From Rhynchopus sp. YZ270_cl-10 (lineage: Eukaryota): a stretch of DNA of 64,000 bases. The notes below the pieces were generated by a model, which did no database searches, was not told where the DNA came from, and saw only the letters and a list, made by a program, of their open reading frames with translations. The translations under genes were made by a program, and so were the position numbers. This document shows positions 10,740 to 63,398 of the stretch, in pieces (position 1 is the stretch's first letter; each line of letters opens with the position of its first letter). The stretch spans positions 496,001 through 560,000 of the forward strand of contig OZ037843.1 of assembly GCA_964035575.1 (NCBI GenBank). The letters run 5' to 3'.

Positions 10740-10801
10740 CGTTTCGTGGTTACCGTTGCTACATCATCTTCCCGCCTCCACTCGTCCAGAAATGAACGGG
10801 G
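10740..10801 (-). ncRNA. Decayed permuted hammerhead ribozyme
   Basis: Minus strand: CCCG-tt-CATTT-CTGGACGA-GTGG-ag-GCGGG..tGTA-GCAACG-gtaa-CCAC-GAAAC. Core and stem I are mutated. Confidence 0.5.
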
Positions 10802-11279
10802 ATAAATGGGAACCCAGGATCATGGCTTCCCGGGTGAGATTGGTTCGGCTTCAGGCCTTCCCTGCGCCAGATGACTGTCACGGCTAAGTTTTTAGAAGAG
10901 CGGGAAAAAAGTAAACATGAGACAATGAGGAAAATGAGGAAACTGAGGACATGGATCACTTATCATCAAAAAAAAAAAAAATAAATAAATAAATAAATAA
11001 ATGGACGCTAAATGGGGGGTGCGGTGAGTGGTGAAGTTATTAAATAACAACACGCTGACGGATGGTAATGATGATGGTGATGGTGGAAGGGGGAAGAGGG
11101 ATGGATGGGTATAGGACTTTTGATAATTTGTTAGTTTGGGTGATACAACCAAGTTTTGCAACAAACATTATTAGCATAGAAACCCGAGGATGTGCTCTGC
11201 TATTGCGTCGACAATCGCCCGAGTAATCCCATCAGGTGGGAGAATTCGGGTCTGTACTCAATGTTGGCCGAAGCCTTTA

Positions 11280-32254: not shown

Positions 32255-32510
32255 TGCTATTTTGCTTGTTACCAGGGTAACAAGGCCACCGTGTACACAA
32301 ACGAATAGTCAGAAGGACTACAACGTGGGACCACCAGTCGTAATGACTATGTACCAAACTAGTTGCAAAACAACGGTCGTTTGGATCAGTAGCACTACTG
32401 GTAGTCGTCCTGACTAGTCCGCCGTGTATGTGACCGGGGGGAGAACATCTGAGGGGGGGTGGACCCCAACTATGCAGTCCTACATCCATTTTTTCGCGGT
32501 TTTCCATCTG
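32255..32510 (-). mobile_element. Structured retroposon-like repeat headed by a hammerhead remnant
   Basis: The body is near-identical to ~36210-36410. Its right end matches 60515-60570, including the 3' half of the ribozyme. Confidence 0.55.
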
Positions 32511-33233: not shown

Positions 33234-34035
33234 CATACTTGGACCGCCCGAAATATATTTCGGGCATTTCGGGCGAATTCGGGCGCTTTTTCCTTAGTGA
33301 AAACCGACTAGGTAGGGTTCTATTCATTTTTGCAAAAAACTTTTTATATTTGGAAAGATTTGATGTCAAATCTGTCAAAATAAGCAAGAATTGAAAACTT
33401 TTGGACACCTGAATGCACTTTGGAGGCCCGTGAGAATCACCATCAAATCATGGGTTTTCCGACTATCATTTGCTTATTCCCACCCAAAACACACTATGAA
33501 CCGGGTTTTCACTATTTTTTCGTATTTCAGGGTGGTTTTTTGTGAATTTTCGGGTCACAGGGTGGTTCTGACCCATTCTGGGGGTGTTTAGGGCCTGTAG
33601 TTGCTCAGGAGATGCCCGAAAACGTGAAAAAACGGCATTTTTACGTTTTTTTACGTTTTTAGTGGTATTTTCGTGTAAATTGTTAGGGAAATCGGTTTTA
33701 TACGTGGCTGCTAACAGAGCTGCACTCATATACGTTGGGTTCTACTAGGACTTTTTGCTCGATTTTTTTTTTCTGTGAACAATTTTTGTGGCAATCTTTC
33801 AAATAAAGCGTAAGATTTTTACACTGGTGGCATGCTTCCCAGCACACATAAGATACTCCAGTGCACTGGTTGTGCGCCCGAATTCGCCCGAATCTGCCCG
33901 AAATCGCCCGAAATACGTATAAATTCCCTTTAAAACGCCCGAAATATATTTCGGGCACATTTCGGGCGCTCGGGACCCGCGCCCGAAAAATTCGCCCGAA
34001 TTCGCCCGAAATATATTTCGAGCGGTCCAAGTATG
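33234..34035. mobile_element. CATACTTGG MITE, copy 2
   Basis: Same TIRs as copy 1; TSD GTAAAA. Confidence 0.92.
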
Positions 34036-41979: not shown

Positions 41980-42756
41980 TTACGGCTTGTAAGCGACGAC
42001 AGGTGAGACCAAAAACATCATGGGTTGGGCACCCAGGGCTTGCTGCTGGAGGAAGATCTGCTGCTGCTGTGCTTGATGCGCTCGCATCTGCTGTTGCTGG
42101 TTCATCTGCGACTGCAGTGCCAGCTGCTGGAGGAGCATGTTCTGGTATGCCGCCTCGTCCACGAACTGCATCTGAAACGGCTGCACAGCCTGCGTCGGTG
42201 CGACACCCATGTACTGTGCTGCCAGCACCTTGCGCTGCAGATCAGCCTCGGGCACGACCGCCATCTGCAGGGTGGCCGGGTGTGCAGTGGGGAGAACAGT
42301 GGTTGGCATGACAGCAACCGGAGGCTCACGCATCTGCCCCTGTTTCGTCTGCAAGGGCACCTCCTGCGTCTCGCTTCTGTACGCAGGGATGTACGGCATT
42401 TCCTCAGGGGCTGCGAACGTGCGCGCCTGGGGCGTCGGCAGGGGCGGCACGGCACCGGCACGCTCGGGGTGCGTCTTCCTCCTTTGCTTCTCCATAAAGG
42501 CGTCCTCCTTCACCTTGCTTTTGTAGGCGTGGATGTGCAGCAGCGTGCACGTGGGGTCCGTACAGTTTCCCTTTGGGAATTTGCTGCATTTGTCACACGC
42601 CTCGAGAATAACGTTCCACTTGCCAGAGCAGACACGGCAGCGGAGGTGTGTCTTCTGGCACTTCACCCGCAGGTTATCCCAGTCGTTGTGCGTGCATCTT
42701 GAGCTTGCAGGCGCCAATGGCTCGGGCGCGATGTCCTTGTTTGTTCTGACGCACAT
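41980..42756 (-). CDS. Zinc-ribbon + CCCH-type zinc-finger protein with Q-rich tail (258 aa)
   Basis: GC-rich ORF with CTHNDWDNLRVK..HLRCRVC and C-x7-C-x4-C-x3-H. The ATG at 42756 follows a pyrimidine tract + AG. Paralog at 50148-51032. Confidence 0.85.
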   Translation of the reverse strand: MCVRTNKDIAPEPLAPASSRCTHNDWDNLRVKCQKTHLRCRVCSGKWNVILEACDKCSKFPKGNCTDPTCTLLHIHAYKSKVKEDAFMEKQRRKTHPERAGAVPPLPTPQARTFAAPEEMPYIPAYRSETQEVPLQTKQGQMREPPVAVMPTTVLPTAHPATLQMAVVPEADLQRKVLAAQYMGVAPTQAVQPFQMQFVDEAAYQNMLLQQLALQSQMNQQQQMRAHQAQQQQIFLQQQALGAQPMMFLVSPVVAYKP

Positions 42757-43295: not shown

Positions 43296-44049
43296 TTTTC
43301 TCAACTGAGGAAAAGTAGCTCTGAGCAAACCCCGTGGAAGAAGTGTGAGGATAAATTCACTTTTCCTCACACATAGCCACTTTTCCTCACGCAATTTGGA
43401 AAAGTAGCAATAATTTTTGGCTGGGGTTTGTGTAGAAAAAAGCCTATGTGTGAGGCTTTTTTTGGTGTGAGGAAAAGTAGAGGGGGGGGTCGAAAAAAAA
43501 ATTGGGTGGGAGAGTGGGTCATTTTGATATCTCTGCTTCACATTTTGTCACCGTGACCAACATGACCATTTTTTGGTCCATTTTTTCGGCCAAAAATTTG
43601 GTACCACAGGGCTATACCATATTCTGGGATTATCAATCTTTTGAAAATACGGCCTGGTATTCGGGCCAAAATGTCCCATGGGGCCCATAGTAGCCTTACT
43701 GGGTGTCGAGCAGAGCCAATCTTAATAGTGAAATTCGATTTTCTGTGAAAAATATTCCCACCAAAAAATCGTCTTTTTTTTTCTGCATATTCACCCCACA
43801 CTTCTTCCACGGGGTTTGCTTAGAGCTACTTTTCCTTCAGTTGAGAAAACTATTATATTCTGGTGAAATATTCACTTTCCCTCCACTCGTGCCCTTTCAG
43901 AAACTCGTGGCTGACTTTATCCCACTCGCTTCGCTCGTGAGATAAAGTCTATTACCCCACTCGCTTCGCTCGTGGGGTAAAATGCCACTCGTTTCTGAAA
44001 GGTACACTCGTGTGAGGAAAAGTGAATATTTCCTCAGACGAATAAATAG
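43296..44049 (-). mobile_element. Family H1, copy 2 (uninterrupted)
   Basis: Near-identical to 1318-2476 without the SINE; T-rich flanks. Confidence 0.88.
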
Positions 44050-44130
44050 CTATTTTTTGAAAACTTGGAAAAATCACGTGTCGCAACAGAATATATCCAC
44101 GCCACGCCCACCCTCCGCCCAGCTTACTTC

Positions 44131-44192
44131 CATTTCGCGGTCTACGTTGAGATGTCCTACTCCCGCTACCGCTCGTCAGTCAACGAAACGGG
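44131..44192 (-). ncRNA. Non-circularly permuted hammerhead ribozyme
   Basis: Minus strand: CCCG-ttt-CGTTGA-CTGACGA-GCGGT-ag-CGGG-agtagga-CATC^TCAACG-tag-ACCGC-GAAATG. Confidence 0.75.
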
Positions 44193-45120
44193 TATAATTG
44201 GAACACAAGGGAGCAACTCCTTGTGCGAAGTAAGTGACTCGGGGGGGGTTTTTTTTCATTTACCGACCCTCCCCCTTGAAATTGTCCCTGGCGGCAAAAT
44301 ACCGGTTTTTAGGGGGGACAATTTCATGGGGAGGGTCGGTATTTATTTTTTTAGCACAAAAAATTTAAAAAAAAAAAGCACTTCAACGTAGGGTGGGTCC
44401 ATCACTTTAAGTCATATGAGAATAGGTTGTGGTCACCTAACTATGGTTGGAGACAAAGGTACACAGTGGCCACGTGACATACAAATGACATTGCTATCAT
44501 TTGCCCTTTGGTACGTAACACCGCCACACGGCAACACGCTTTCATAGCATTGCTTTCTTTTTTTTTTTTGCGTGAAATGCATAAAAACAAACATAAAAAG
44601 TCATACATTTCAAAGTACGATGCAAAATAGAATACTATTGTAGCAATGTTACCCGGAGGGGGTACATGGTTCACTGTGAATTGGGGAGGAGGGGAGTTTG
44701 AAAATGTTTTTTGCATGTTTCGAAAGTGCTTTGTGCTCTGTTTAATTTTGCTTGATAGAGAGGAGGGGGGCAGACCACGACCCTTTGTAAGCACCACAAA
44801 AAATATTCGCCGTTGACTATTTGTGTCTCTTTTTTTTTTTTGTAGATTACCCTGAGGGCAGGCTCACTTTTGTCTGTGTTTAGTGCTCGGAGGGCCCAAA
44901 AATTTTCCGCGCGCGCGCGCAAGAAAAAAACATGGAAAAAAAACATGGAAAAAAAAAATAAGAAAAAACACACACACACACACACACGTTGCACGGTGTG
45001 CATGATTGGTGAAACTTTTAAACGCCGGCATTTGCATTTCCGGAATTCGTCCGGCCAGTGGTGGGGTCAATTTGCCGAAATGGACAAGTTCTCGTTTTTG
45101 GTCAATTTCTGCACAGTACA

Positions 45121-45471
45121 CAGTATACACAGTATACACAGTATACACAGTATACACAGTATACACAGTATACACAGTATACACAGTATACACAGTATAC
45201 ACAGTATACACAGTATACACAGTATACACAGTATACACAGTATACACAGTATACACAGTATACACAGTATACACAGTATACACAGTATACACAGTATACA
45301 CAGTATACACAGTATACACAGTATACACAGTATACACAGTATACACAGTATACACAGTATACACAGTATACACAGTATACACAGTATACACAGTATACAC
45401 AGTATACACAGTATACACAGTATACACAGTATACACAGTATACACAGTATACACAGTATACACAGTATACA
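45121..45471. repeat. (CAGTATACA)x39 tandem repeat
   Basis: Perfect 9-bp array read directly. Confidence 0.97.
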
Positions 45472-45485
45472 CAGGGGATTGGGAG

Positions 45486-48400
45486 TACAGTACAGTACAG
45501 TACAGTACAGTACAGTACAGTACAGTACAGTACAGTACAGTACAGTACAGTACAGTACAGTACAGTACAGTACAGTACAGTACAGTACAGTACAGTACAG
45601 TACAGTACAGTACAGTACAGTACAGTACAGTACAGTACAGTACAGTACAGTACAGTACAGTACAGTACAGTACAGTACAGTACAGTACAGTACAGTACAG
45701 TACAGTACAGTACAGTACAGTACAGTACAGTACAGTACAGTACAGTACAGTACAGTACAGTACAGTACAGTACAGTACAGTACAGTACAGTACAGTACAG
45801 TACAGTACAGTACAGTACAGTACAGTACAGTACAGTACAGTACAGTACAGTACAGTACAGTACAGTACAGTACAGTACAGTACAGTACAGTACAGTACAG
45901 TACAGTACAGTACAGTACAGTACAGTACAGTACAGTACAGTACAGTACAGTACAGTACAGTACAGTACAGTACAGTACAGTACAGTACAGTACAGTACAG
46001 TACAGTACAGTACAGTACAGTACAGTACAGTACAGTACAGTACAGTACAGTACAGTACAGTACAGTACAGTACAGTACAGTACAGTACAGTACAGTACAG
46101 TACAGTACAGTACAGTACAGTACAGTACAGTACAGTACAGTACAGTACAGTACAGTACAGTACAGTACAGTACAGTACAGTACAGTACAGTACAGTACAG
46201 TACAGTACAGTACAGTACAGTACAGTACAGTACAGTACAGTACAGTACAGTACAGTACAGTACAGTACAGTACAGTACAGTACAGTACAGTACAGTACAG
46301 TACAGTACAGTACAGTACAGTACAGTACAGTACAGTACAGTACAGTACAGTACAGTACAGTACAGTACAGTACAGTACAGTACAGTACAGTACAGTACAG
46401 TACAGTACAGTACAGTACAGTACAGTACAGTACAGTACAGTACAGTACAGTACAGTACAGTACAGTACAGTACAGTACAGTACAGTACAGTACAGTACAG
46501 TACAGTACAGTACAGTACAGTACAGTACAGTACAGTACAGTACAGTACAGTACAGTACAGTACAGTACAGTACAGTACAGTACAGTACAGTACAGTACAG
46601 TACAGTACAGTACAGTACAGTACAGTACAGTACAGTACAGTACAGTACAGTACAGTACAGTACAGTACAGTACAGTACAGTACAGTACAGTACAGTACAG
46701 TACAGTACAGTACAGTACAGTACAGTACAGTACAGTACAGTACAGTACAGTACAGTACAGTACAGTACAGTACAGTACAGTACAGTACAGTACAGTACAG
46801 TACAGTACAGTACAGTACAGTACAGTACAGTACAGTACAGTACAGTACAGTACAGTACAGTACAGTACAGTACAGTACAGTACAGTACAGTACAGTACAG
46901 TACAGTACAGTACAGTACAGTACAGTACAGTACAGTACAGTACAGTACAGTACAGTACAGTACAGTACAGTACAGTACAGTACAGTACAGTACAGTACAG
47001 TACAGTACAGTACAGTACAGTACAGTACAGTACAGTACAGTACAGTACAGTACAGTACAGTACAGTACAGTACAGTACAGTACAGTACAGTACAGTACAG
47101 TACAGTACAGTACAGTACAGTACAGTACAGTACAGTACAGTACAGTACAGTACAGTACAGTACAGTACAGTACAGTACAGTACAGTACAGTACAGTACAG
47201 TACAGTACAGTACAGTACAGTACAGTACAGTACAGTACAGTACAGTACAGTACAGTACAGTACAGTACAGTACAGTACAGTACAGTACAGTACAGTACAG
47301 TACAGTACAGTACAGTACAGTACAGTACAGTACAGTACAGTACAGTACAGTACAGTACAGTACAGTACAGTACAGTACAGTACAGTACAGTACAGTACAG
47401 TACAGTACAGTACAGTACAGTACAGTACAGTACAGTACAGTACAGTACAGTACAGTACAGTACAGTACAGTACAGTACAGTACAGTACAGTACAGTACAG
47501 TACAGTACAGTACAGTACAGTACAGTACAGTACAGTACAGTACAGTACAGTACAGTACAGTACAGTACAGTACAGTACAGTACAGTACAGTACAGTACAG
47601 TACAGTACAGTACAGTACAGTACAGTACAGTACAGTACAGTACAGTACAGTACAGTACAGTACAGTACAGTACAGTACAGTACAGTACAGTACAGTACAG
47701 TACAGTACAGTACAGTACAGTACAGTACAGTACAGTACAGTACAGTACAGTACAGTACAGTACAGTACAGTACAGTACAGTACAGTACAGTACAGTACAG
47801 TACAGTACAGTACAGTACAGTACAGTACAGTACAGTACAGTACAGTACAGTACAGTACAGTACAGTACAGTACAGTACAGTACAGTACAGTACAGTACAG
47901 TACAGTACAGTACAGTACAGTACAGTACAGTACAGTACAGTACAGTACAGTACAGTACAGTACAGTACAGTACAGTACAGTACAGTACAGTACAGTACAG
48001 TACAGTACAGTACAGTACAGTACAGTACAGTACAGTACAGTACAGTACAGTACAGTACAGTACAGTACAGTACAGTACAGTACAGTACAGTACAGTACAG
48101 TACAGTACAGTACAGTACAGTACAGTACAGTACAGTACAGTACAGTACAGTACAGTACAGTACAGTACAGTACAGTACAGTACAGTACAGTACAGTACAG
48201 TACAGTACAGTACAGTACAGTACAGTACAGTACAGTACAGTACAGTACAGTACAGTACAGTACAGTACAGTACAGTACAGTACAGTACAGTACAGTACAG
48301 TACAGTACAGTACAGTACAGTACAGTACAGTACAGTACAGTACAGTACAGTACAGTACAGTACAGTACAGTACAGTACAGTACAGTACAGTACAGTACAG

Positions 48401-48530
48401 TACAGTACAGTACAGTACAGTACAGTACAGTACAGTACAGTACAGTACAGTACAGTACAGTACAGTACAGTACAGTACAGTACAGTACAGTACAGTACAG
48501 TACAGTACAGTACAGTACAGTACAGTACAG
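45486..48530. repeat. (TACAG)x609 microsatellite
   Basis: Perfect 5-bp array spanning 3045 bp. Confidence 0.98.
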
Positions 48531-50147
48531 TTCTTCGTAGAACTTCGTTTTGCAATAAGAAAGCCTCACCCTTCTTCCCAGAATTCCTCCCAGAACCAGC
48601 TGGGCACCAATACTGGAAATATCGTAAAAGCATAACTATTTTGGACGATTTTGTGGACGATTTGGCTGCTACTCGGAAAATCCATTTGTTTGCGGGTTTC
48701 CCGGAACCTCACAAAAATAAATCCCATCGATCATTTTTTGAAACATTTCACAATATTTTTGTAGGAACTTGGTGCACAAAATCACCTCAAGCCCCACTAC
48801 TCTCTCCCTCACACCTTTTATTACTACAATGTTTTTTTTTTTTCCCATGTTTTTTTTTTTGGAATTCTCAAAATTTTCCGCGCGCGCGAGCAATAAACAC
48901 AGGCAAAAGTGAGCCTGCCCTGAATGTTTTTTTTTTGAAAACTTGGTTGTATTAGTGTAGCCACCCTAGGCTAGAGTATGCTCCACTATGGATTTTTTTT
49001 TTGTCACCTCACGAAATGAAGGAGGAAATAGAAACAACGCACTTTGAACACACTTTGCGGTTCTAGGGAAGAACCGCGTTGCAGAGCCACGCCTCACCAA
49101 ACAGGTCGAGGTGTGTGCGTTTCACCACAACCTCTCCCATGGGTTTTATCGTGTGATGAGTGTTAAGTTTCTATTTTGTGTCTAACCCCCTTGCTGGGCA
49201 CCTCGGGTGTGTGTTGAATGACTGCACTATGCCGCCTCACTCTCCTCATAGTTTTCGGGTTGACGGGTTTGCGGGATCAACAAAAAAAAAAAAAAAATGT
49301 TCCCAAAACTAAGCACATCAAAAAAAAATAGAGGGAACTGAAAAAAAGGAAAAAAAAAAGAGGGAAAAAAAAAACGTTCAAAACGTGCTTTGTTGAAATA
49401 GGTGAGAATCTCAGAAGCGGTGCAAGAAACCCCCAAGAAGACGGCTTCAGTGAAAAAAAAAGGGGGGTGTGACTGTGTGGTAGTGAGGTAGTGACTACTG
49501 TGCCTGCTGTTGTTTATTCAATTGCAAGGTTTTTTTTTTGTTGTGGGTGTGTGTGTTTTCTTTTCTTTTTTTCTTTTTTTGATAAATTGTTAGAGTAGTG
49601 TAGTTGTCTCGGTTGTGTTGCCACAGTTTGTGCAATCTCCACTTTCTGTTGTTGTTGCTGTTGTTGTTGTCGAACGAACCACCCACCTGAGGTAGGATCG
49701 GTATTCAATTGTCGCCCGAGGGCTATTGACTGAAGAATTTAAGAGATATATCTCCAAGGGTAAAAACACGGGATGCGCTCTGCCTTTTTCTTCTTTTTTT
49801 GTTTTTTTTTTTTTTTTTTTGAAAACTTGGTTGTATTAGTGTAGCCATCCTAGAGCGCGCTCCACTAACTTTTTTTCTTTTTTCTTTTTTTTTTTTTTTT
49901 GATTATTTTTTCTCGAAAAGATCGAAAAAACAAAAGTGCAAAACAATAAATAATAAATACCGCCCGATCCGTGTCAGGTCTGTTACAAAAAAAAACAAAA
50001 AATAAGGCTAAAATACTTGCGAAGTGAACCCACATATCCACTACGGCAATCAACACCAACCACTAGCCTCTACGCACCTCCACACCAAAGCCGCCCCTTT
50101 CTCCTTTGCTGCGCCCAGTGGGCAGGCTGCGGCTCTGCGTCGGGACG

Positions 50148-51032
50148 TCACTTTGTTCGCTCCCGTCGAGGACGCGGTGAAGGAAGACTGCAAGCACGAC
50201 GTCTTGGGGCTGGTGCGGGGTGCGCGCCCACGTTGCAGGCGACAACGCGGGTGTCCCCCTCCTCTGCTTGGTCTGTGTGCGCGGGGCGTTTCTCTTCCTG
50301 CCCCCCCTGCTCGGGCTCAGCACGCATCGCCTGCTGCCACATGCCCTGCTGTGCATGCTGTGGACTGTCGTAGCGATCCCACTCAGACCCATAAGGACTC
50401 CACTGCAGTGCCTGCTGCTGGTGTGCGTCAGGGAAGAAAGGTGGCTGTGCAACCTGCTGAGGGTGGTGTTGGTGCTGGTGTGCGTGTACCGTGTGGTGGT
50501 GCTGATACGGGTGTACCGTGTGGTGGGGCTGGCATGGGTGAACCGTGTGTTGGGTATGTGGCAGAACAGCGAGACCTGGGTGAGGCGGCGGTTGCATCAT
50601 GAAAGGACCTGTCATGCGATTTGGTTGTAGTCGTGGCTGTGGCAGTGGTTGTGTCTGTGGCTTAGGTTGTGACTTAGGTTGTGTCTGTGGCTTTGGTTGT
50701 GGCTGTGCAGAGCGCGTGTTGTCCTGCACTAACCCCTTTAACTTCTGCAACTCGGCTTTCGCCTTCGTCCTTTCCAGAAATTCCTTTTCTTTGTCCTCAC
50801 TTTTGTAAGCATGTATATGCAGGAGCGTGCACGCAGGGTCCTCGCATTTACCCTTTGGGAAAAGGACACACTTTTCGTGCGTTGCTTTTGTCCTCTTCTT
50901 CACATCGCAGACACGGCAGCGTAGATGCGTCTTGCCGTTCTTGACACGCAGGTTGTCCCAGTCGTTGTGGCCGCAGTCTGGGGGCTCAGGTTGATCTTTT
51001 TTCGAAGCAAGTACTTCGGTCTTGGCGCACAT
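50148..51032 (-). CDS. Zinc-ribbon + CCCH-type zinc-finger protein with P/Q/H-rich tail
   Basis: CGHNDWDNLRVKNGKTHLRCRVC...CVLFPKGKCEDPACTLLHIHAYKS. The first ATG at 51032 follows TTTTGCAG. Confidence 0.85.
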   Translation of the reverse strand: MCAKTEVLASKKDQPEPPDCGHNDWDNLRVKNGKTHLRCRVCDVKKRTKATHEKCVLFPKGKCEDPACTLLHIHAYKSEDKEKEFLERTKAKAELQKLKGLVQDNTRSAQPQPKPQTQPKSQPKPQTQPLPQPRLQPNRMTGPFMMQPPPHPGLAVLPHTQHTVHPCQPHHTVHPYQHHHTVHAHQHQHHPQQVAQPPFFPDAHQQQALQWSPYGSEWDRYDSPQHAQQGMWQQAMRAEPEQGGQEEKRPAHTDQAEEGDTRVVACNVGAHPAPAPRRRACSLPSPRPRRERTK

Positions 51033-53304: not shown

Positions 53305-55791
53305 TCAGTCTTTCTCTATCATTTCGACCAGCGCCGCAGTAAACGCGGTGTACTCAGGGAGACAACGTGACCACTGCTTCAGCTCGGCTTGGTGCACCAG
53401 AGAGTGCATGAAGTTGAGACAGCGTTCCCGCAGCATGTCGCCATTTGGGGTCTCGCACGCTGCGTTCACCTGCGCGAAGGAAAATGCAAGATCGGTCATA
53501 TCCGCCAATGTCTCAAGCTCGGTAAGCAAACGCGCATACACGATCCGCTGCTTCTTGTACGCACGCCTCGAGAACACCAAGGTATACATCGCGTCGTATG
53601 TCAACGAAACCCTCTGGGTAAATGCCTCACACGCAGCCACAATCTTCCTCAAGGTACTGCACCGTACGAAGCACCGCCCCGCCACATTCGCCACCTTCCC
53701 GACAAATTGCACCTCCGTCACGGCCGGCACCTCCATCCCCTGCACCCCACCTGCCCACTTCTCTAGCCTCTCCCTCAACACTCTCGCATTATCTGGCAGC
53801 CTATTTGGATCATCCGCGATCCGTTCATTCTGCCCCGCAACATCAACACCACTGGACCCACCAGAAGGAGGGGGGAACCCTGTACCACGCAGCTCAATGA
53901 GACGGAGGCGTTCAGTGATCATAGCGCGTCCGGTGGTTTGAAAAAGCGCGGATTCTGTGTTAAAGAGCGCCTGGGGTGCCATCTGGGTGTGGTAGTTTGC
54001 GACGTAGCGCAGAGGGGTAGCGAATGTGGTGGCAAATCGTTCGCGTTGTTCTGGGGGTGCGAGAGCGACGCCGCAGTGGATCACGACAGCGAGAAGTGGC
54101 GACAGAATTTCGACCGGGATGTCTTCTGGGTGTATCGAGGCGTGCGCCAGGTCGTCACGACCACGTGGCCCATCCTGCCATATCCAATGATCATATAAGA
54201 CATCCGTTGCCCCATTGCCGAGGAATGGAAGCAGATGGTTTGCACCCGGCGACAAAATTTCGTCCACAGTAACAAAGAGCTCATCCTTGATGGGTGCACG
54301 CCAACGGTGGTCTAGATCATTCACCGCCGCGTAAACCCTACGTAACGCAGATTCGAGAAGCACTGAAACCAACGCTGCCGCTTTGTACACACTGCAGGCA
54401 TCAGATGCAACACCGTTCATACACACCCGACCTCCATTTGCCAAACCCTCAGTTGCGCTGAGTTTTGAAGCCTTTTCTAGATACAATGTACTATAGTAGG
54501 CCTCAAGCGCCTCACCCCATTCGTTCTCTCTCGAGGAAAGAAAAAACGCGCTGTTTGCAACCAAATCCAAAAAGGCGTTTTTCCCGATCCCCAGCAGCGC
54601 TTCCGTCAGCTCCGTCGGTGTAAGATCTATCCCCCGCCTTTTGAGACCTCCGGTCCATTCTTTTAGATCAAAGAGAGGCCCCCCTTTGTGAGCGGACGCT
54701 CTCTTCGCAGTGATGTCCATCAACACAAACGGGGTTTCTTCTGTGATGTAGGATATCCTCTCTGGAAGACCTCGCAGTTTTTCCTCTACCCCAAATCTCT
54801 CCAATGCGTTGGCGTACTTCTTTGCTATTAATGGTTTGGTCTGAAGCATTGCGGCGACCGCTTTAAAACATTCTGCACGAACCTCTTCTTCGCACCCCTT
54901 TACCTCCCCAAAGGGTCGGGTAACATCATATAGAATGTCACCAATACTCACAACACTATGAGGATTTGATATAACAGATTTCAAAGAAACTTTATGCAAT
55001 GAAAGAATTATGTGAAGGAGAAGAACAGCATAAGAAGGATGTAACTCTTCTGCCGAAAGAAAATTGTGCCAAACCAGGTTGCGTAGAGAAAGTCCGTGGA
55101 GAGGGCCGAAAAGGGCGCGGAAGAGAAGGATAGTCTTAACCCCGAGAAGCCTTTTGAGGAATTCATTCTGGAGAAGGTCGGTCGATTTGGTTTCTCGAAG
55201 GGTGATAGCAGCACCACCTCCCCCTTTACCCCTCCCTCCCCATACCAACACCGCGGTTAAGGCGCGCTCCAAATATGAAACACATAGCATGAATGCAACC
55301 ATCTGATCCACTCTCGATCCCTTCATCAATGTTATAACCACCTCAATCACCCCCTTAGGGAAGGTTCGGAGCGCTCTCGGAACCGCGAGACTTTCAAAGT
55401 CCGAATGGAGATCCGATGCGCAGCATTTGAGACGTTCAACAATGGTGAGGTAGCTGGATTCGTCTGGGTGGATCTCATTTTTCTCCCCTTTTTGCGTAGA
55501 TGAAGGCAAATCTCGGGTACGTTTGTAAGACCCCCAGAGGGGTAAAGCAGAGTCGGGAACACATTTTTCGGCAAGCTGGCAGAGATCGAGAAATCCGTCT
55601 TTGTCGGTGAGCGTGGTGGAGGTGGTGGAGGTGGAGGTGGTGTTGTGATTGCCCTCAATCCGGCACAACGTTTGCGTCACATCAAACACAGCAGCCTCTT
55701 CACACTGTGCAGCCAGACGTCCAGGGCTGCCACCACCCAAAATATCTAACACCACACGGGACACTTTGTACCGTGGTGAGACGGCTGGCAT
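53305..55791 (-). CDS. ERMARD: ERMARD-like (DUF4209) protein, 828 aa
   Basis: Long ORF. The motif LERAL...FGPLHGLSLRNLVWHNFLS resembles ERMARD GLNLRNxLWHGF, and there is a second GPRGRDDLAH motif. First ATG at 55791. Confidence 0.8.
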   Translation of the reverse strand: MPAVSPRYKVSRVVLDILGGGSPGRLAAQCEEAAVFDVTQTLCRIEGNHNTTSTSTTSTTLTDKDGFLDLCQLAEKCVPDSALPLWGSYKRTRDLPSSTQKGEKNEIHPDESSYLTIVERLKCCASDLHSDFESLAVPRALRTFPKGVIEVVITLMKGSRVDQMVAFMLCVSYLERALTAVLVWGGRGKGGGGAAITLRETKSTDLLQNEFLKRLLGVKTILLFRALFGPLHGLSLRNLVWHNFLSAEELHPSYAVLLLHIILSLHKVSLKSVISNPHSVVSIGDILYDVTRPFGEVKGCEEEVRAECFKAVAAMLQTKPLIAKKYANALERFGVEEKLRGLPERISYITEETPFVLMDITAKRASAHKGGPLFDLKEWTGGLKRRGIDLTPTELTEALLGIGKNAFLDLVANSAFFLSSRENEWGEALEAYYSTLYLEKASKLSATEGLANGGRVCMNGVASDACSVYKAAALVSVLLESALRRVYAAVNDLDHRWRAPIKDELFVTVDEILSPGANHLLPFLGNGATDVLYDHWIWQDGPRGRDDLAHASIHPEDIPVEILSPLLAVVIHCGVALAPPEQRERFATTFATPLRYVANYHTQMAPQALFNTESALFQTTGRAMITERLRLIELRGTGFPPPSGGSSGVDVAGQNERIADDPNRLPDNARVLRERLEKWAGGVQGMEVPAVTEVQFVGKVANVAGRCFVRCSTLRKIVAACEAFTQRVSLTYDAMYTLVFSRRAYKKQRIVYARLLTELETLADMTDLAFSFAQVNAACETPNGDMLRERCLNFMHSLVHQAELKQWSRCLPEYTAFTAALVEMIEKD

Positions 55792-56082
55792 TGTGGGGCC
55801 TTTTTTTATGTACTCAGCGCAAAAAAAAAAAGGATACAAAGTGTGTGAACTGACCGCGAATTTCTGCGATAAAGGAATTCAAAAATGCGGTGTAATCTGT
55901 TGGGGTGTTTGTCAGAAAGTTGTTGTTTTTGCTTTGTGCTCTTTTTGTTTTGGTGGTCTTTAAAAATGTACTATTTGCTTTTTTGTTTTGTTGTTGCTTT
56001 TGTGTTTTGGATCCATGACCAATTGGTCTTCAGGAATCTTTTTTCGTGTTTTTCAAAATAAAAGAAAAGGAAAAGTTAAAAA

Positions 56083-56153
56083 CTGGTTTCGGCGGTCTGC
56101 TCCCTGACCAGGAAAAGTGCCCTTCGACCGCGCTCATCAGAAGGAGCAAGGGC
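56083..56153 (-). ncRNA. Non-circularly permuted, pseudoknotted hammerhead ribozyme (apparently intact)
   Basis: Minus strand: GCCCTT-GCTCCTT-CTGATGA-G-c-GCGGTC-g-AAGGGC-acttttc-CTGGTC^AGGGAGC-a-GACCGC-C-GAA-ACCAG. All core nucleotides and four helices are present. Confidence 0.85.
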
Positions 56154-56703
56154 TTAAAATAAAAAGTAAAAACATGAACACTTTTGTCGAGTCATTGTTT
56201 TTTTGAGTACACTTTGGAATAATAAAAAAGAGTGATGAAGTCGTTTTTTTGTTTGTGTTCAGGTATCGTAGCTCGCCAACCTGTGGGCAGACAGTATTCA
56301 CATATCAATGGTATACTGTCGTATGAATAGGGCAATTACACATATTCCTTGTGATAGCCTTCTCTTTGTAAGTAAAAGTAGAAAGGCTCTTTAAGCACTC
56401 AACATTAGGTTTTTTTAGTGTGTATCAGTGGGCTCAAGGTTTCGCTACCCCTCAGTTTATGGAACTAGCCAGGTTCCTTAGTCGAACGCACCACCGTTCG
56501 AGGAGAATTTACGCAGCATATGGGGGTTTCCCATAGCAGGCCCCGCGTTTTATATATTGGCAAGTGTGAGTCCTATCGGCTCATATTGCTTGCTCTCTGA
56601 GGTGGTTTAGAAGAAATTCACACACGATAGACAAAAATTGAAAACAGAAAAGGTAGAGTTTCTTGCTGAGGATTACTCCGTTCTTTTATTTGCATTGCAC
56701 TGT

Positions 56704-57556
56704 TGAAGAAAAAGGGTTCAAGAAAAACTGCATGTTGCATCGTGCTCGTAGCATCGATAGGCCACCCCGCAACTGGGTTCGTAGGCTTCTTAGTCTACCT
56801 CGGGCGGTTATTGTAACGAAGACCTTTTGAGAGGCTATAGTTATTAGTAAAACTGCCGTCTAACATGAAAAATCAGCATCGCGTACTGATATCCATGAAG
56901 TACGTAGGCATTGCAGACATTCGTGGAGTCTTTCCCTTCGGATTCCATAGAAAAGAAAAAAAAGGTTTTTGTTTTTTGTTTGATGACATGTACAGCAACT
57001 GTTTTGTAGAGTATGTTTTTCTAAGTTTGTAGACATCAAGTCAAAGAGAAGGGGTGCGTTACTTTGTTTGAGATTACGACTTATCCACGATCTTCGAACT
57101 AAGAAAAGGTTTTCCATAAGACTCAAATAAGAGTGAAGAAAAAGGGTTCAAGAAAAACTGCATGTTGCATCGTGCTCGTAGCATCGATAGGCCACCCCGC
57201 AACTGGGTTCGTAGGCTTCTTAGTCTACCTCGGGCGGTTATTGTAACGAAGACCTTTTGAGAGGCTATAGTTATTAGTAAAACTGCCGTCTAACATGAAA
57301 GATCAGCATCGCGTACTGATATCCATGAAGTACGTAGGCATTGCAGACATTCGTGGAGTCTTTCCCTTCGGATTCCATAGAAAAGAAAAAAAAGGGTTTT
57401 GTTTTTTGTTTGATGACATGTACAGCAACTGTTTTGTAGAGTATGTTTTTCTAAGTTTGTAGACATCAAGTCAAAGAGAAGGGGTGCGTTACTTTGTTTG
57501 AGATTACGACTTATCCACGATCTCCGAACTGAGAAAAGGTTTTTCATAAAACTCAA
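56704..57556. repeat. Tandem duplication, 430-bp period
   Basis: Units start at 56704 and 57134 and are near-identical. Confidence 0.93.
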
Positions 57557-58711
57557 GTAAAAAAGAAAGAGGAAAAGGAGATTTGACATTCAATACGAGT
57601 CGTTCAACCTTATCCTTCTTTTGCAAATGTACTTTTCTTATCATATAAAGCCACGTTTTTATATTTTTTCAATTGTTTGTAAAAAGTAAAAATGGAAAAG
57701 GGTTTTACTCAATCCTCAAATAGGAGTTGAGTGAGCATGTTGGGGTCTGCGGAATCTGTTGGGGTGGTATAAAATAGTAACTCTGATAGGTAAGTAAGAG
57801 GAAAAAAGGTTTTTTCGTTGATTGCACAATTACCCGTTTGAGGGGTGATTGGCGACTGTATCTGAGGAACTATTTCTCCTTTAAGCTACGCTTGTAGGTA
57901 TAACAAAAAAAAGTTTTCAATTTGAACAAACCCTTTCAGGTCAACACTCACCCTCACCCTCCAACCGGTAGTCCTGGAATATTAGGTGTACTCCAGACTG
58001 TCTGGTAACAGCCTAAGTGATCTTCTGAGGTCAAATGAGCAGAAATGAAAACAAAAAAACACAAATTATCATTTTCATTTTTATTTTCAAAAGAGGAAAA
58101 CAAACCAGAAAGGGTAGTTGAAAACGTGCTAAAAGCGTAGCTCGGTCGAGGGGGGAAAGAAGAAAAGTTTATAAGATGACCCTAAGCCTCTCGTGATTAG
58201 ATTATTCATTGGTTTATTCATCAGTCATTTGTTTTTTTTTTGTGTGCCATTGCTACTCGTGGGTGGCAATTTGTTTTAAGTAAGCCTCTCGTGCCTTAGT
58301 CACCTTATCAAAAATGTCAAGAGACCACACCGACTGACATATCAGCCAATCACGTGAACCTGAAAAGGTTTACCCAAGAGTTGGTCCAGTTGTCCTCAAA
58401 GCCGTCACACCCCGAGGGGGGGGAGGTGTGCTGTCTGTTTTCCCTGTTGTGGCAACAACAGGGAGGTCCCCTCCGTATAGCGGTAAAATGGCACCCAACC
58501 GCCGGGACACGGTCCCGGGTTTACTTTGGATAGAGCAAATTTTTTTTTTGATTATAGACTACTATCACCTAGATAGGCAGCCACAGTTTTTCTTTCACAG
58601 GATCCTTAAAAAGAGAGCAAATAGAAGGGAGTACGCTTTGTACGATACCAAGATCGCGTTAGTCACCTTAACGGGGGGAAGAAATTGAAAATTTTGTTTT
58701 GATAGACTACT

Positions 58712-59619
58712 CATACTTGGACCGCCCGAAATATATTTCGGGCGAATTCGGGCGAATTTTTCGGGCGCGGATCCCGAGCGCCCGAAATGTGCCCAAAATA
58801 TATTTCGGGCGTTTTAAAGGGAATTTATACGCAATTCGGGCGAATTCGGGCGCATTTCGGGCGAATTTGGGCACATTTCGGGCGAATTCGGGCGAATTCG
58901 GGCGCACAACCAGTATCTTATGTGTGCTGGGAAGCATGCCACCAGTGTAAAAATCTAACGCTTTATTTGAAAGATTGGCACAAAATTTGTTCAAAGAAAA
59001 AAAAAATTGAGCAAAAATTCCTAGTAGAACCCAACTTATATGAGTGCAGCTCTGTTAGCAGCCACGTATAAAACCGATTTCCCTAACAATTTACACTAAA
59101 ATACTACTAAAAACGTAAAAAGGCGATTTTTCACGTTTTTGGGCATCTCCTGAGCAACTACAGGCCCTAAACACCCCCAGAATGGGTCAGAACCACCCTG
59201 TGACCCGAAAATTCACAAAAATTCACCCTGAAATACGAAAAAAATAGTGAAAACCCGGTTCATAGTGTGTTTTGGGTGGGAATAAGCAAATGATAGTCAG
59301 AAAACCCGTGATTTGGTGGTGATTCTCACGGGCCTCCAAAGTGCACTCAGGTGTACAAAAGTTTTCGATTATTGCTTATTTTGACAGATTTGACATCAAA
59401 TATTTCCAAATATAAAAAGTTTTTTGCGAAAATGAGTAGAACCCTACCTAGTCGGTTTTCACTAAGGAAAAAGCGCCCGAATTCGCCCGAAATCTGCATT
59501 TCGGGCGACTTCGGGCGTTTTCGGGCGAATTCGGGCGCATAAAATCGCCCGAAATCCGCCCCTAATTCGCCCGAAATCGCCCGAAATGCCCGACATATAT
59601 TTCGGGCGGTCCAAGTATG
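58712..59619. mobile_element. CATACTTGG MITE, copy 3 (inverted)
   Basis: Same TIRs; TSD ACTACT. An empty-site paralog lies at ~58550-58640. Confidence 0.92.
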
Positions 59620-60548
59620 ACTACTATCACTAGATAGGCAGCAACGGGTTTTCTTCGCAGGATCCTTAAAAAGCGAGCAAATAGAAGGGAGTACGCTTTG
59701 CAGTAGGAGGTGTGTACTCTGGATAGAGCACATAGAGCAACCACGTACTGCTTTGACAGCGTTAAAGTCATGAGAGTGAATACCAAGTATTTTTTAAAAA
59801 AATAAATAAAAATACCTCCCGCACACCCTGGAAAGGGGGGGGCGGAACAACAACAATGGAATTGCATTTTTTTTATTTACAGCCAAAGTGATTGACCTTG
59901 CTTCAATCTTGCGCACATCGCGCTCATATGTGCCTGTACATCGTTCGGGTGAAAAGAACGTTCCTCCAAAAATGGTGTCAAAAACAGTAAAATCACCTCA
60001 CAAGCCACTGTATGTGTAAAAGGGGCAAAAATAGCCTAAAAACACGGGGAAAAATACCCAAAAAAAAAAGGGGGTCAAAAAAAAAAAATGTATTTTTGCC
60101 AAAGCCCCCAGCCGCCGGAAAATGGTTTTTGGGCACCGCAAAAGGAGATGGTGGACTGTGCACGACAGGCGAATATGTCAACACCAAAAACGGCATGCCT
60201 CGTTCTTGTGGTCAATAGGAGAACATGGCAACATGGCAACGTGCGTCACGACTGCTTAGGCAGAGCGGAGGCCCCAAACGAACGGTTCACTAGGCATACA
60301 CTTGATGCGAGTCGCATGCGAGAATCATTCTCGTTCACATAGAAGGGTTTTGGTCGTGCGAGAATGAGCAAGAATTGTACGACAATGCGAGAATGCGACT
60401 CGATCGAGTGTATGACCAGGGGGATAAAGAAAACAAAAACAAAACAAAATCGACTTGAAACACAAAAACCCTCTCGTGAACAGTGTACCTTTTGGTACAA
60501 ATGACCGGCGGTACCGGGGGTGGACACCCAACCATGCGGTCCTACATC

Positions 60549-60617
60549 CATTTTCGTGGTTTACATCTGATATGTTCTACTCCCGCTTCCACTCATCAGC
60601 CAGATGAATGAAAGGGA
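60549..60617 (-). ncRNA. Non-circularly permuted hammerhead ribozyme
   Basis: Minus strand: TCCC..CATCTGG-CTGATGA-GTGG-aagc-GGGA-gtagaa-CATA^TCAGATG-taaa-CCAC-GAAAATG (one extra A). Confidence 0.65.
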
Positions 60618-60999
60618 TCATTGCAAACACAGGTTAATGGCCTGTGTGATGTATGGTCCGGTTGGGTTGGGTTGGGAAAACAAAACAAAAACAAGGATTA
60701 TAGGTTTGGAAAAATGGGCCTTCCCATACCAGTAAAAAAAACACACACAAAACAAAAAAGACACAAAACGTCACAAAAAGCTCGCCAGAATATTTCTGTC
60801 ACTATTGTGGGTTACTGTGGGAATGGATTGTGAACCTTCCAGGATTGCTTTCTAATCATCGCATTGCACGTAACGGGGGGGGAGAAAAAATGGTGCTGCA
60901 AATTACCAGGTTATTTTGAACTCTGGCTTGCAAGGAAGGGTTGCCAAGGTTGCCGACGGAAGTCGGCTCAATGAAGGCAAAATGGTTACGATATCTGTA

Positions 61000-61304: not shown

Positions 61305-63398
61305 CTAATACACACTCTCTCTACTGCCGCACTTCGTAACAACTCTGTAGCACTCCTTGTACGGAACGAGAACCTTCTCGACTGCAGACAGCAGTGTTGT
61401 GCCCTCGGGAGGCTCGAACAGACACACCACACCGTCGCGCACAGCCTCTTCGCACAGCGTCCAGCTCCGGCGCACAGTTGTCCCCATCACCGTCACAAAG
61501 CGCTGCTTGCGTGCCCCCACATCACCATGCTGGATCAGCCCGCTTGCGAGGCCAACACCGTGCAGGGTTGCCTTCACGACCATGCGTTGTGCAAAGCGGA
61601 TCGCATTCTCCATGTGTGCAGGGGCAGGGCGGCTTACGTTCCACGACACGCAGACACGGCTGCCAAGGAGCGTCACCAGGCTTCCGCCACTTTGGCTGAG
61701 TGCGACGGTAAGTGTCGAGAGGCCCGCGTTAATGTCGTTCAGTGTTGCATGGCGTTCGTCTCGGACTGCTAGGTCCATCACACCCACAGTGCCGGACACC
61801 TGTCGTGCAGAAGAGGGTACAACGACAGACTGAAGCGACGAAGTGGAGTGCGTCGAGCCAGTTGCCTTCGACACTAAGCTTCCCTTGTGAAATACGCGCA
61901 AGTCACCAAGGGGCCGCCCCTTCCGTCTCCCGAGCGTCACAGGCCACACAGGACACACAAATATCGTATCACTCACGCCCTTCAGGTCAAGTGATTCTGT
62001 CTCACCCACAACAGCACTGCACGCACAACAGTCAGACGTCCACAGGTCAGAGGACACAGCAACAGCCCCAGGCGTGCATATGCTCTCAAGGCGTGACGCA
62101 ACGTTGACAGTGTGTCCGAAGTAGTCTGTCCGTCCAGTGAGTGCGTTCTGTTCGATGGCGACAGGGCCGGTGTTGACACCAATGCGCACAGTGAGGCCAC
62201 CCCACAGAGAGTCTTGTGGTGTGCAGATGGGGACGTTGAGGAGCGACGCAGGCCAGTCCGCGTGGAGCAGCTTCTCGTGTACCTGCAGAGCAAAGTTTAT
62301 CCCGTCTGCTGTTGTCGCAAAGGCAATCATGAAGGCGTCGCCAATGGTTTTGACTTCGTACCCACCAAACACCTGCATCACCTCCCTCATGACACGGTTG
62401 TGGGTATGCAACGCAGCGCCCATCCCGTCAGGTGCACACTCCCAGATCGACGTCGACGCACGGATGTCTGTGAACACAATCGTTGCTGTCCCACTCTCGA
62501 GCCCAGGTGGTGCCACAGATGTGTGCTGCACACCGTCCACCTCATCTTCCTCAAACAGCGCAGCAGGGAGGTAGGGACGGTACTTCCGCAGGTTCTCCTC
62601 CAACGTCTGCAGCGTTGCGCGCATCTCCTCTGGGAGCAACGTCTCTTGCGCCTCCAGCATGCGTGCCACGCCTTCCACGTCGTACCCAGCCAGGAGTGAG
62701 GCGATGTCCTGCACTGTAGCTATGGTCCGCTGCATGGCTTCCTTCTCCTTGAGTGCAGAACGCGCGAAGCCTCTCGTTGCTATAAAATCTACCGCAAATA
62801 TGCTGATGCTGGGGAGCAACGTGTACGGCGGGAACCCTACCGGGCAGGGCAATGCATCACACGCCGTGAGCTTGCTCAGGATCGCACGCCTCCCTTCGGC
62901 GCCTTCTTGCCACACGAGACCGGGCATTTCAAAGAGCCCAAAGCGAAAGCTTTCTTCGCACCCAAGAACAAGCAACCACACCACCACAAAGCACACCAGG
63001 CCGGTACTGTACCGTTCGGGCACCTCCACCACAAGCAACACATCGATGATGAGGACAAGCAGCGCCCAGTTCGTTTGCCCATGCGTACGTGCGTTCAGGT
63101 CCCACATCAGAAACCCTGCTGCGACGGTGTACAACCCCGGCACCACGACACACGTTGTGAGGTGCCGTTTACTGATAATAACGACTGCAGTCATCAGCGA
63201 CCCCAAGAAAACGCAGGAATATGCGAGAGTGCTTACGCTGAAGGGCGGCCGGCTCGACCAACGGTCGATCAACATGAGCATGCCCACCACAGGCAGTAGC
63301 ATGCCCATGAAGGAAACTATCAACAGCGTCAGCCGCTTCTTCTGCTCAGCTCTGTGCAGAGTTCCGTCAAGCGACAGTGCGTTCGCAAGACACTGCAT
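61305..63398 (-). CDS. Membrane-bound class III adenylate cyclase
   Basis: N-terminal hydrophobic helices; IVFTDI, YEVKTIGDAFM, RIGVNTG and DYFGHTVNVASR motifs (K/D indicate ATP specificity); degenerate second cyclase-like domain. The start is uncertain (the frame is open to 63443). Confidence 0.92.
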   Translation of the reverse strand: MQCLANALSLDGTLHRAEQKKRLTLLIVSFMGMLLPVVGMLMLIDRWSSRPPFSVSTLAYSCVFLGSLMTAVVIISKRHLTTCVVVPGLYTVAAGFLMWDLNARTHGQTNWALLVLIIDVLLVVEVPERYSTGLVCFVVVWLLVLGCEESFRFGLFEMPGLVWQEGAEGRRAILSKLTACDALPCPVGFPPYTLLPSISIFAVDFIATRGFARSALKEKEAMQRTIATVQDIASLLAGYDVEGVARMLEAQETLLPEEMRATLQTLEENLRKYRPYLPAALFEEDEVDGVQHTSVAPPGLESGTATIVFTDIRASTSIWECAPDGMGAALHTHNRVMREVMQVFGGYEVKTIGDAFMIAFATTADGINFALQVHEKLLHADWPASLLNVPICTPQDSLWGGLTVRIGVNTGPVAIEQNALTGRTDYFGHTVNVASRLESICTPGAVAVSSDLWTSDCCACSAVVGETESLDLKGVSDTIFVCPVWPVTLGRRKGRPLGDLRVFHKGSLVSKATGSTHSTSSLQSVVVPSSARQVSGTVGVMDLAVRDERHATLNDINAGLSTLTVALSQSGGSLVTLLGSRVCVSWNVSRPAPAHMENAIRFAQRMVVKATLHGVGLASGLIQHGDVGARKQRFVTVMGTTVRRSWTLCEEAVRDGVVCLFEPPEGTTLLSAVEKVLVPYKECYRVVTKCGSRESVY

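What the first reader, a model, noticed from the sequence alone, without database searches (positions are those of the whole stretch)
56083..56153. Intact hammerhead ribozyme with non-circularly permuted topology and an extra pseudoknot
Seen: the minus-strand order is PK5'(GCCCUU) - stem I(GCUCCUU) - CUGAUGA - stem II(G,GCGGUC) - PK3'(AAGGGC) - stem III(CUGGU) - C^ - stem I'(AGGGAGC) - stem II'(GACCGC,C) - GAA - stem III'(ACCAG). The GUC cleavage strand is threaded inside loop II, which fits none of types I/II/III (these are circular permutations). Standard hammerhead models should therefore miss it. Known (from memory): non-circularly permuted hammerheads were reported by the Weinberg lab (Eckert et al., NAR 2023); I do not know of them in euglenozoans. 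Inference: self-cleavage between 56106 and 56105.
Basis: partly seen in the sequence, partly recalled or inferred. Interest (0 to 1): 0.93.

Follow-up and report, generated by a model that had tools for sequence, protein, structure and literature searches.

The report
Scrambled hammerhead ribozyme as tiny repeat
This stretch has every part of a hammerhead self-cutting RNA in a rare scrambled order published from only two soil sequences, and here it forms a roughly 80-letter repeat with dozens of copies in what is likely a protist genome; cutting is predicted, not yet tested.

Summary
Minus-strand 56153-56083 holds an intact hammerhead core and four perfect helices in block order C-S-G, which is type CSG of Eckert et al. 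2023. The 'extra' pseudoknot is part of that published type. Score 48; 0 hits at 44 or more in 150 shuffled windows. Rfam misses it, as does the published CSG descriptor.

What is new is the setting. Read data show a short dispersed repeat, about 50-65 times single-copy depth, with differing upstream flanks and listed variants in or beside the unpaired linker. A second, diverged CSG family with compensatory changes has four copies or remnants in this window. All five copies lie on the strand of a one-way gene cluster in a euglenozoan-like genome. Type CSG was published from two soil-metagenome sequences and no known organism.

Best reading: a working CSG hammerhead that is the body of a tiny non-autonomous retroposon. 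Cleavage, expression and the mobilising enzyme are untested. This scan already noted a CSG hammerhead on other DNA (e1-7368731). Verdict: new variant of a known kind; interest 0.62.

The parts
56083..56153 (-). Family A type-CSG hammerhead: pseudoknot 6 bp, stem I 7 bp, CUGAUGA, stem II 1+6 bp with a bulged C, stem III 5 bp, GUC site, GAAA
56105..56106 (-). Predicted cleavage bond (after C17 of GUC)
   Evidence: analogy to CSG-1 and CSG-2; untested
56112..56118 (-). 7-nt unpaired linker from pseudoknot to stem III; holds the common variants among genomic copies
56078..56159 (-). Extent of the high-depth repeat unit. The edge at 56157-56159 is sharp; the other edge is blurred by a skipped low-complexity stretch (56030-56081)
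   Evidence: tables 1, 2, 7
56055..56082 (-). U-rich tail; its first 10-12 bases resemble the tails of two other copies
   Evidence: table 7
56176..56185 (-). Upstream flank that can form a 10-bp helix with 56122-56113 (pseudoknot strand and linker); possible inhibitor at this locus
   Evidence: predicted only
44123..44234 (-). Family B copy B44, intact-looking CSG hammerhead (CUGACGA at 44179, AUC site, 6-bp pseudoknot, stems 6/5/3 bp) with an upstream hairpin and an 8-bp outer stem next to stem III
60526..60667 (-). Family B copy B60, decayed (extra A in GAAA, pseudoknot strand one base short, AUA site); stems I and II, hairpin and outer stem differ from B44 yet still pair
10740..10835 (-). 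Family B copy B10, decayed (core insertion, stem I 5' strand lost); stem III UGU/ACG against CAU/AUG in B44; run of 15 A about 25 nt downstream
32455..32510 (-). Family B remnant: only the part downstream of the predicted cut, next to an inverted-repeat element
53305..55791 (-). Downstream gene, 828 aa, DUF4209; likely splice acceptor AG at 55814-55813 after a pyrimidine tract, about 290 nt past the predicted cut
   Evidence: the acceptor is inferred
61305..63398 (-). Upstream gene, 697-aa membrane adenylate cyclase of a large paralog family; best solved relatives are the receptor-type cyclases GRESAG 4.1 and 4.3

Best explanation
The motif has the complete anatomy of a type-CSG hammerhead, is predicted to cut itself after GUC (56106|56105), and makes up almost all of an 80-100 nt dispersed repeat that likely spreads as a non-autonomous retroposon using a reverse transcriptase borrowed from another element. 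Folding (inferred from strand order): the pseudoknot forms first; stems I, II and III then clamp the last 23 nt onto the 5' part and build the ordinary hammerhead core. Expression (inferred): copies lie on the strand of a one-way gene cluster, so they would be read as part of a polycistronic transcript with no promoter of their own. A cut in a spacer would be tolerated if the downstream gene gets its cap by trans-splicing. Spread (partly shown): the copies are mostly full length, so they were not copied from the 3' cleavage product. The template would be RNA that is uncut, rejoined or circular, or the opposite strand, which cannot cut itself and whose end here is A-rich. Selection on the copying masters would explain why helices and core are kept while the linker drifts.
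For: Shown: all helices and core bases; beyond chance; same order and pseudoknot position as CSG-1 and CSG-2, which cleave in vitro at 0.004 and 0.026 per min. Summed contig depth across the linker is 47-65 times that of the neighbouring single-copy gene in 3 of 3 deep runs. Depth falls from 11,000-21,000 to 500-850 just upstream of the pseudoknot, and 5 listed loose ends at 56152-56164 show 5 different flanks. Of 12 variant rows inside the motif, 9 lie in the linker; the other 3 are a C lost from the CC run beside it, a G-C to G-U change in the last pseudoknot pair and an insertion beside that base; all 7 rows lie in the linker. One loose end turns a stem I G-U into A-U. Family B keeps pairing through changed letters in stems I, II, III and the hairpin, has a 7-nt linker in 3 of 3 copies that retain one, and shows decayed copies as mobile repeats do. 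5 of 5 copies and 4 of 4 credible genes are on the minus strand; three other short repeats are also one-way (11 of 11, 5 of 5, 5 of 5). Precedent: ribozyme-bearing retroposons in trypanosomatid polycistrons (PMC4035085 abstract) and a four-fold sense bias of SIDERs (PMC2689281 passages).
Against: No cleavage or expression data. No reverse transcriptase among the 10 ORFs scanned with Pfam. No head-to-tail joint was listed, though the tail region was skipped there. The candidate target duplication (9 nt, 56164-56156 and 56063-56055) is a word found 17 times on that strand, so it is weak. Depth is not a true copy number, as the tool warns. Variant detection is best in the middle of the motif, where the linker lies; the tables are incomplete (56114 appears but not; 8 and 7 indel rows were cut). 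Two pieces with 8-9 unlisted differences and a loose end that changes a stem III base (GAAAACAG) could be broken copies. The best nested fold traps the core in a hairpin and has z = +1.05 (pseudoknots are not modelled). The upstream flank can pair with the pseudoknot strand. Eckert et al. note that the pseudoknot-to-stem III link spans distant points in the crystal structure.
Confidence: 0.55

Rival explanations
1. The ribozyme is active but is the terminal piece (UTR, pseudo-LTR or LTR) of a longer autonomous retroelement such as a Penelope-like or RLE-type element; the short copies are its truncated or solo remnants.
For: One contig piece at about 13-copy depth runs 43 nt beyond the 3' end (X1 record 2). 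Family B shares a hairpin, an outer stem and, in two copies, about 40 nt of downstream sequence. B32 starts about at the predicted cut. Hammerheads sit in the pLTRs of Penelope-like elements, including protist ones (PMC4209133 passages). Unchecked scan notes put other scrambled hammerheads in Naiad and Hero tails.
Against: Depth drops about twenty-fold within 10 nt of the pseudoknot and the listed upstream flanks differ. No RT domain among the ORFs scanned. B32 abuts an inserted inverted-repeat element, which may explain its edge.
Confidence: 0.22
2. The host has adopted the ribozyme to process or destabilise polycistronic pre-mRNA, cutting in spacers or UTRs as SIDER retroposons do in Leishmania.
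For: All 5 copies lie on the gene strand; the family A copy is about 290 nt upstream of a likely splice acceptor. SIDER elements with HDV-like ribozymes are linked to mRNA down-regulation (PMC4035085 abstract).
Against: Other short repeats show the same one-way bias, so orientation is not specific. Family A copies are nearly identical and look young; 3 of 4 family B copies are decayed, which fits neutral loss after insertion.
Confidence: 0.12
3. The sequence does not cut as a monomer: it needs a strand-swapped dimer, in which S of one molecule with C and G of another gives a normal type III order, or it misfolds.
For: Long-range link from pseudoknot to stem III; competing nested folds; dimeric hammerheads are known in retrozymes (PMC7229834 abstract).
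Against: CSG-1 and CSG-2 cleave during transcription with a 2-nt linker; this motif has 7 nt. The same 7-nt length in four unlike linkers suggests a fixed span within one molecule. No tandem partner in the window.
Confidence: 0.1
4. Chance arrangement or assembly artefact.
For: The descriptor was relaxed after seeing the motif.
Against: 0 hits at this score in 150 shuffles; present unchanged in a third study; multi-copy with structure-keeping variation; a second family that covaries.
Confidence: 0.01

Closest known systems
Type-CSG hammerhead ribozymes CSG-1 and CSG-2 (Eckert, Friedrich, Weinberg, Weinberg 2023, PMC10085705; read: main text parts 1, 3-6 of 8 and all supplement passages with 'CSG')
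   Same: Block order C-S-G; pseudoknot strand directly before stem I and its partner directly after stem II; intact CUGAUGA, GAAA and GUC; 5-bp stem III; about 70 nt.
   Different: Little sequence likeness outside the core (compared by eye). Pseudoknot 6 bp against 8; linker to stem III 7 nt against 2; stem I-to-II link 1 nt against about 5; bulged C in stem II. The published examples are 2 unique sequences from soil metagenome DNA with no known organism or context; this one is a multi-copy repeat in a eukaryotic gene cluster.
Type-SGC hammerheads (HRIMA-1; same paper)
   Same: [quoted passage not shown]
   Different: Open ends lie elsewhere; found in metatranscriptomes, in presumed circular-RNA agents, 583 sequences.
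Non-LTR retrozymes (PMC7229834 abstract; bioRxiv 10.64898/2026.07.22.740005 part 1 of 5)
   Same: Non-coding, non-autonomous genomic repeats built around a hammerhead, mostly intergenic; solo copies occur.
   Different: Retrozymes are 170-400 nt tandem units with a type I hammerhead that make RNA circles. This unit is about 80-100 nt, type CSG, with no tandem array seen.
L1Tc/ingi/SIDER retroposons with the Pr77 HDV-like ribozyme (PMC4035085 abstract; PMC2689281 passages)
   Same: Ribozyme-bearing dispersed repeats in euglenozoan polycistronic gene clusters, biased to the gene strand.
   Different: Different ribozyme class. An HDV-like ribozyme cuts at its 5' edge and stays whole in the released RNA (recalled); a CSG hammerhead cuts in its own middle.
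Penelope-like element pLTR hammerheads (PMC4209133 passages)
   Same: Hammerheads spread by retroelements, also in protists.
   Different: Type I order, inside the repeats of long coding elements.

Membership tests
Type-CSG hammerhead | Blocks in 5'-3' order C (stem I-CUGAnGA-stem II), S (stem III-UH-stem I), G (stem II-GAAA-stem III) | tested here: met
   definition
Type-CSG hammerhead | All conserved core bases and the G10.1-C11.1 and A15.1-U16.1 pairs | tested here: met
Type-CSG hammerhead | [quoted passage not shown] | tested here: met
   6 of 6 Watson-Crick pairs; same place as in the published alignment
Type-CSG hammerhead | Fits the published RNAmotif search pattern (unbroken stem II, at most 10 nt to stem III) | tested here: not met
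   (my re-coding of the 'noU' pattern): matches only with a bulge and a longer spacer. This is a search setting, not the definition of the type
Type-CSG hammerhead | Covariation or structure-keeping variation among homologs | tested here: met
   Family A: variants in or beside the linker plus two pair-keeping changes (tables incomplete). Family B: compensatory changes in stems I, II, III among 3 copies
Type-CSG hammerhead | Site-specific self-cleavage that depends on the core | not testable with these tools
   needs an in vitro assay or raw RNA reads
Canonical hammerhead types I, II, III (Rfam models) | Nested three-way junction in order CGS, GSC or SCG | tested here: not met
Non-LTR retrozyme | Tandem units of about 170-400 nt, each with a type I hammerhead | tested here: not met
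   no tandem array over the motif, no second family A copy in the window, no head-to-tail joint listed (tail region skipped)
Non-LTR retrozyme | Expressed as linear and circular RNA | not testable with these tools
   needs RNA reads
Short non-autonomous retroposon (SINE-like) | Dispersed multi-copy unit with a defined edge and unrelated flanks | tested here: met
Short non-autonomous retroposon (SINE-like) | A-rich tail and target-site duplication | tested here: inconclusive
   on the plus strand 2 of 5 listed flanks start with a 7-A run, 2 are A-rich, 1 is not; the 9-nt candidate duplication is a common word
Short non-autonomous retroposon (SINE-like) | An autonomous partner element that shares a terminus | not testable with these tools
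   no whole genome is held

The most novel reading that the evidence does not exclude
An 80-100 nt mobile element that is little more than a scrambled hammerhead ribozyme, about half the size of the smallest retrozymes, is spreading through euglenozoan polycistronic gene clusters. It needs its ribozyme fold to spread, yet escapes its own mid-body cut by being copied from an RNA circle, a rejoined RNA or the opposite strand. With a second, older family that adds a hairpin and an outer stem, type CSG would be a recurring eukaryotic mobile-RNA design and not a two-sequence oddity.
Probability: 0.35. Interest if true: 0.82.

Novelty: new variant of a known kind. Interest (0 to 1): 0.62.

Why it matters
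[quoted passage not shown] This genome offers dozens of natural variants in one family, a second covarying family, a genomic setting and probably a culturable host. It makes two open questions testable: whether CSG folds as a monomer despite its long-range link, and what a ribozyme that cuts its own middle does for a mobile element. It also shows that Rfam and the published pattern both miss such motifs, so eukaryotic genomes may hold many more.

Tried and rejected
No whole genome is held, so no genome-wide descriptor search. My first strict descriptor missed the motif because of the bulge. No RNA holder listed among 8 runs. X6 is only guessed to be RNA, so its contig across the cut site was not used as evidence on cleavage. 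Family A pattern: 0 hits in viral contigs; 2 in metagenome contigs, one GC-rich bacterial locus seen twice, not CSG; 1 in prokaryote genomes, not CSG. Family B pattern: 0 in viral contigs. Nested folding does not recover the structure, as expected for pseudoknots. Flank folding energies of family B are not unusual (ranks 106-152 of 600 random positions); the outer stem reaches p = 0.007 in B44 but 0.07 in B60, so it is suggestive only. Homolog searches and the protein atlas named no eukaryotic taxon. No tRNA. Rejected: 'extra pseudoknot' as a novelty; a canonical type III reading of B60; the 9-nt target duplication as firm evidence. Literature searches for other CSG reports or euglenozoan hammerheads returned only Eckert 2023 for 'type-CSG'; subscription journals are mostly outside this library.

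Full report
Observation. The four helices pair fully: pseudoknot 6 bp, stem I 7 bp with one G-U, stem II 6 bp plus the closing G10.1-C11.1 pair with a bulged C between, stem III 5 bp including A15.1-U16.1. CUGAUGA, GAAA and a GUC site are intact. A descriptor for all six block orders gives this motif score 48 and one more CSG hit at 44179 with score 39. In 150 dinucleotide-preserving shuffles of the window (19.2 Mb) 0 hits of any order reach 44 and 0 CSG hits reach 35. Rfam finds nothing at gathering score and no hammerhead at E up to 10.

Identity. Eckert et al. 2023 (PMC10085705; I read main text parts 1 and 3-6 of 8 and the supplement passages with 'CSG') split the hammerhead into blocks C, G and S and name six orders. 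This motif is C-S-G. They found two unique CSG sequences, only in metagenome DNA (soil), both cleaving in vitro at 0.004 and 0.026 per min. They found none in known organisms and called the biological evidence weaker than for type SGC. Their alignment has the same pseudoknot in the same place, so it is not an extra feature. A full-text search for 'type-CSG' returns only that paper; searches for hammerheads in diplonemids, Euglenozoa or Trypanosoma showed no such report in their listings.

Host and setting. The four credible genes in the window are single open frames on the minus strand. The upstream gene is a membrane adenylate cyclase with 546 relatives, the best 120 at 54-100% identity on long contigs. 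Its best solved relatives are GRESAG 4.1 and 4.3 (E 4e-24, 7e-24; next 1e-7), which I recall as trypanosome proteins. This fits a euglenozoan with polycistronic clusters, as described for Diplonema (PMC10161547 passages). The lineage is inferred; no call named it. The predicted cut lies about 290 nt upstream of a likely splice acceptor of the DUF4209 gene.

The motif is a repeat. Six of 8 listed runs hold the region; I laid 4 of them on 55700-56600 and 2 on 56030-56240. Next to a single-copy gene at depth 103.5, 146.8 and 406.6, summed depth across the linker is 4,896-5,809, 9,125 and 26,250, or 47-65 times higher. This is a rough estimate; the tool warns that depth is no copy number, and the best runs may be the source of the assembly. 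Depth falls about twenty-fold within 10 nt upstream of the pseudoknot, and 5 listed loose ends there show 5 different flanks (23 rows not shown). So the unit is the ribozyme plus short U-rich ends. The 5' half is not less deep than the 3' half, so the copies are mostly whole. A third study holds 55977-56150 with 0 differences.

Variation follows the structure. All 7 variant rows inside the motif lie in the 7-nt linker. In one search, 9 of 12 rows do; the others are a C lost from the run beside it, a G-C to G-U change in the last pseudoknot pair, and an insertion beside that base, each at about 1-1.5 copies of depth. The common alleles reach 28-86% of depth. One loose end changes a stem I G-U to A-U. 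Against this: detection is best in mid-motif, though positions 56120-56130 are as central and show no rows; the tables are incomplete; neighbouring rows may be one event; two pieces carry 8-9 unlisted differences; and one loose end alters a stem III base with no visible compensation.

A second family. Three more CSG-like copies and a remnant lie in the window: B44, B60, B10 and B32. B44 looks intact. Helices keep pairing through different letters: stem I CGUUGA/UCAACG against CAUCUGG/UCAGAUG; stem II GCGGU/ACCGC against GUGG/CCAC; stem III CAU/AUG against UGU/ACG; an upstream hairpin in all three. B44 and B60 have an outer stem directly after the 3-bp stem III, with modest statistical support (p 0.007 and 0.07). 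The linker is 7 nt in A, B44, B60 and B10 with unlike sequences. B60 and B10 are decayed. B32 begins about at the predicted cut but abuts an inverted-repeat insertion. All 5 copies are on the gene strand, as is the orientation shared within three other short repeats (11 of 11, 5 of 5, 5 of 5). I had no read call left for family B, so its copy number is unknown.

Mechanism. Shown: the anatomy, the repeat nature, the variation pattern, the orientation. Inferred: self-cleavage after GUC; passive transcription within the cluster; spread through RNA with a borrowed reverse transcriptase. One cut in mid-body cannot release a whole unit, so whole copies need an uncut, rejoined, circular or opposite-strand template. 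Slow rates like those of CSG-1 and CSG-2 would leave uncut RNA for a long time. On the plus strand the sharp edge is followed by A-rich sequence in 4 of 5 listed flanks, which hints at opposite-strand copying. The sequence upstream of this copy resembles the family's tail, which hints at a circle. Both hints are low-complexity and weak, and no head-to-tail joint was listed. I put cleavage at about 0.85 and the whole model at 0.55. Rivals: end piece of a longer retroelement (0.22), host processing signal (0.12), dimer-only or misfolded (0.10), chance (0.01).

Comparison. It meets every sequence-testable defining feature of type CSG; cleavage could not be tested. It is not a type I-III hammerhead. 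It works somewhat like a retrozyme but fails the tandem, 170-400 nt, type I definition (PMC7229834 abstract; bioRxiv 10.64898/2026.07.22.740005 part 1). The nearest setting is the HDV-ribozyme retroposons of trypanosomatids. No relative turned up in viral, metagenome or prokaryote collections with exact patterns. The scan's notes list one earlier CSG finding in another genome and several differently wired hammerheads in animal retroelements; I did not check them, and no look-alike of family A or B was listed.

Verdict. The fold is a known but very rare type. The new parts are a eukaryotic genomic home, a young multi-copy family with structure-keeping variation, a second covarying family with added helices, and features that hide it from current searches. 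New variant of a known kind; interest 0.62.

Noticed in passing
window 56704-57560: Two head-to-tail 430-bp units, 98% identical, 550 nt upstream of the ribozyme on the minus strand; no Rfam match at gathering score and no clear ORF.
   Followed up: partly
window 55902-56022: Very high-depth short repeat (hundreds of times single-copy depth) just downstream of the ribozyme; one other locus also joins it to the ribozyme's 5' half (table 5).
   Followed up: partly
window 56125-56600: The upstream flank is itself at about 2.5-4 times single-copy depth, suggesting a small segmental duplication that includes the ribozyme.
   Followed up: no
window 6452, 7581, 9609, 22335, 25537, 29917, 35745, 37491, 39557, 48938, 49822; 24231, 30685, 31149, 35987, 49581; 20415, 24882, 35274, 37923, 44722: Three families of short dispersed repeats, each in one orientation only; the first two follow long T runs on the plus strand (A tails on the gene strand), like SINEs or 3' ends of LINEs.
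   Followed up: partly
window 7694-8567, 33234-34035, 58706-59621: Three copies of a 900-bp element with arrays of 10-11-nt units near both ends, MITE-like; copies are in both orientations.
   Followed up: no
window 32511-32740: Inverted-repeat element with many short internal repeats and an apparent CA duplication, next to the family B remnant.
   Followed up: partly
window 2071-2485 and 43644-44058: Near-identical element with internal inverted repeats, MITE-like.
   Followed up: no
window 45027-48600: About 3.5 kb of 9-nt and 5-nt microsatellite that gives spurious long open frames on both strands and a spurious Pfam 'Decapeptide' hit.
   Followed up: partly
window 41980-42756 and 50148-51032 (minus): Two paralogous genes with a Cys/His-rich N-terminal domain (HNDWDNLR motif) and a low-complexity tail; no Pfam match, 5 homologs found, no atlas hit.
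   Followed up: partly
window 58160-58310 and near 52070 (minus): Small hairpin-like repeat that also flanks another genomic copy of the ribozyme in the read data (table 7).
   Followed up: no
window 1-41900: About 42 kb with no credible protein gene, filled with short repeats.
   Followed up: no
L061, L084, L090, L111: Canonical-order hammerhead candidates (types I and II) in viral contigs, picked up while screening for CSG.
   Followed up: no
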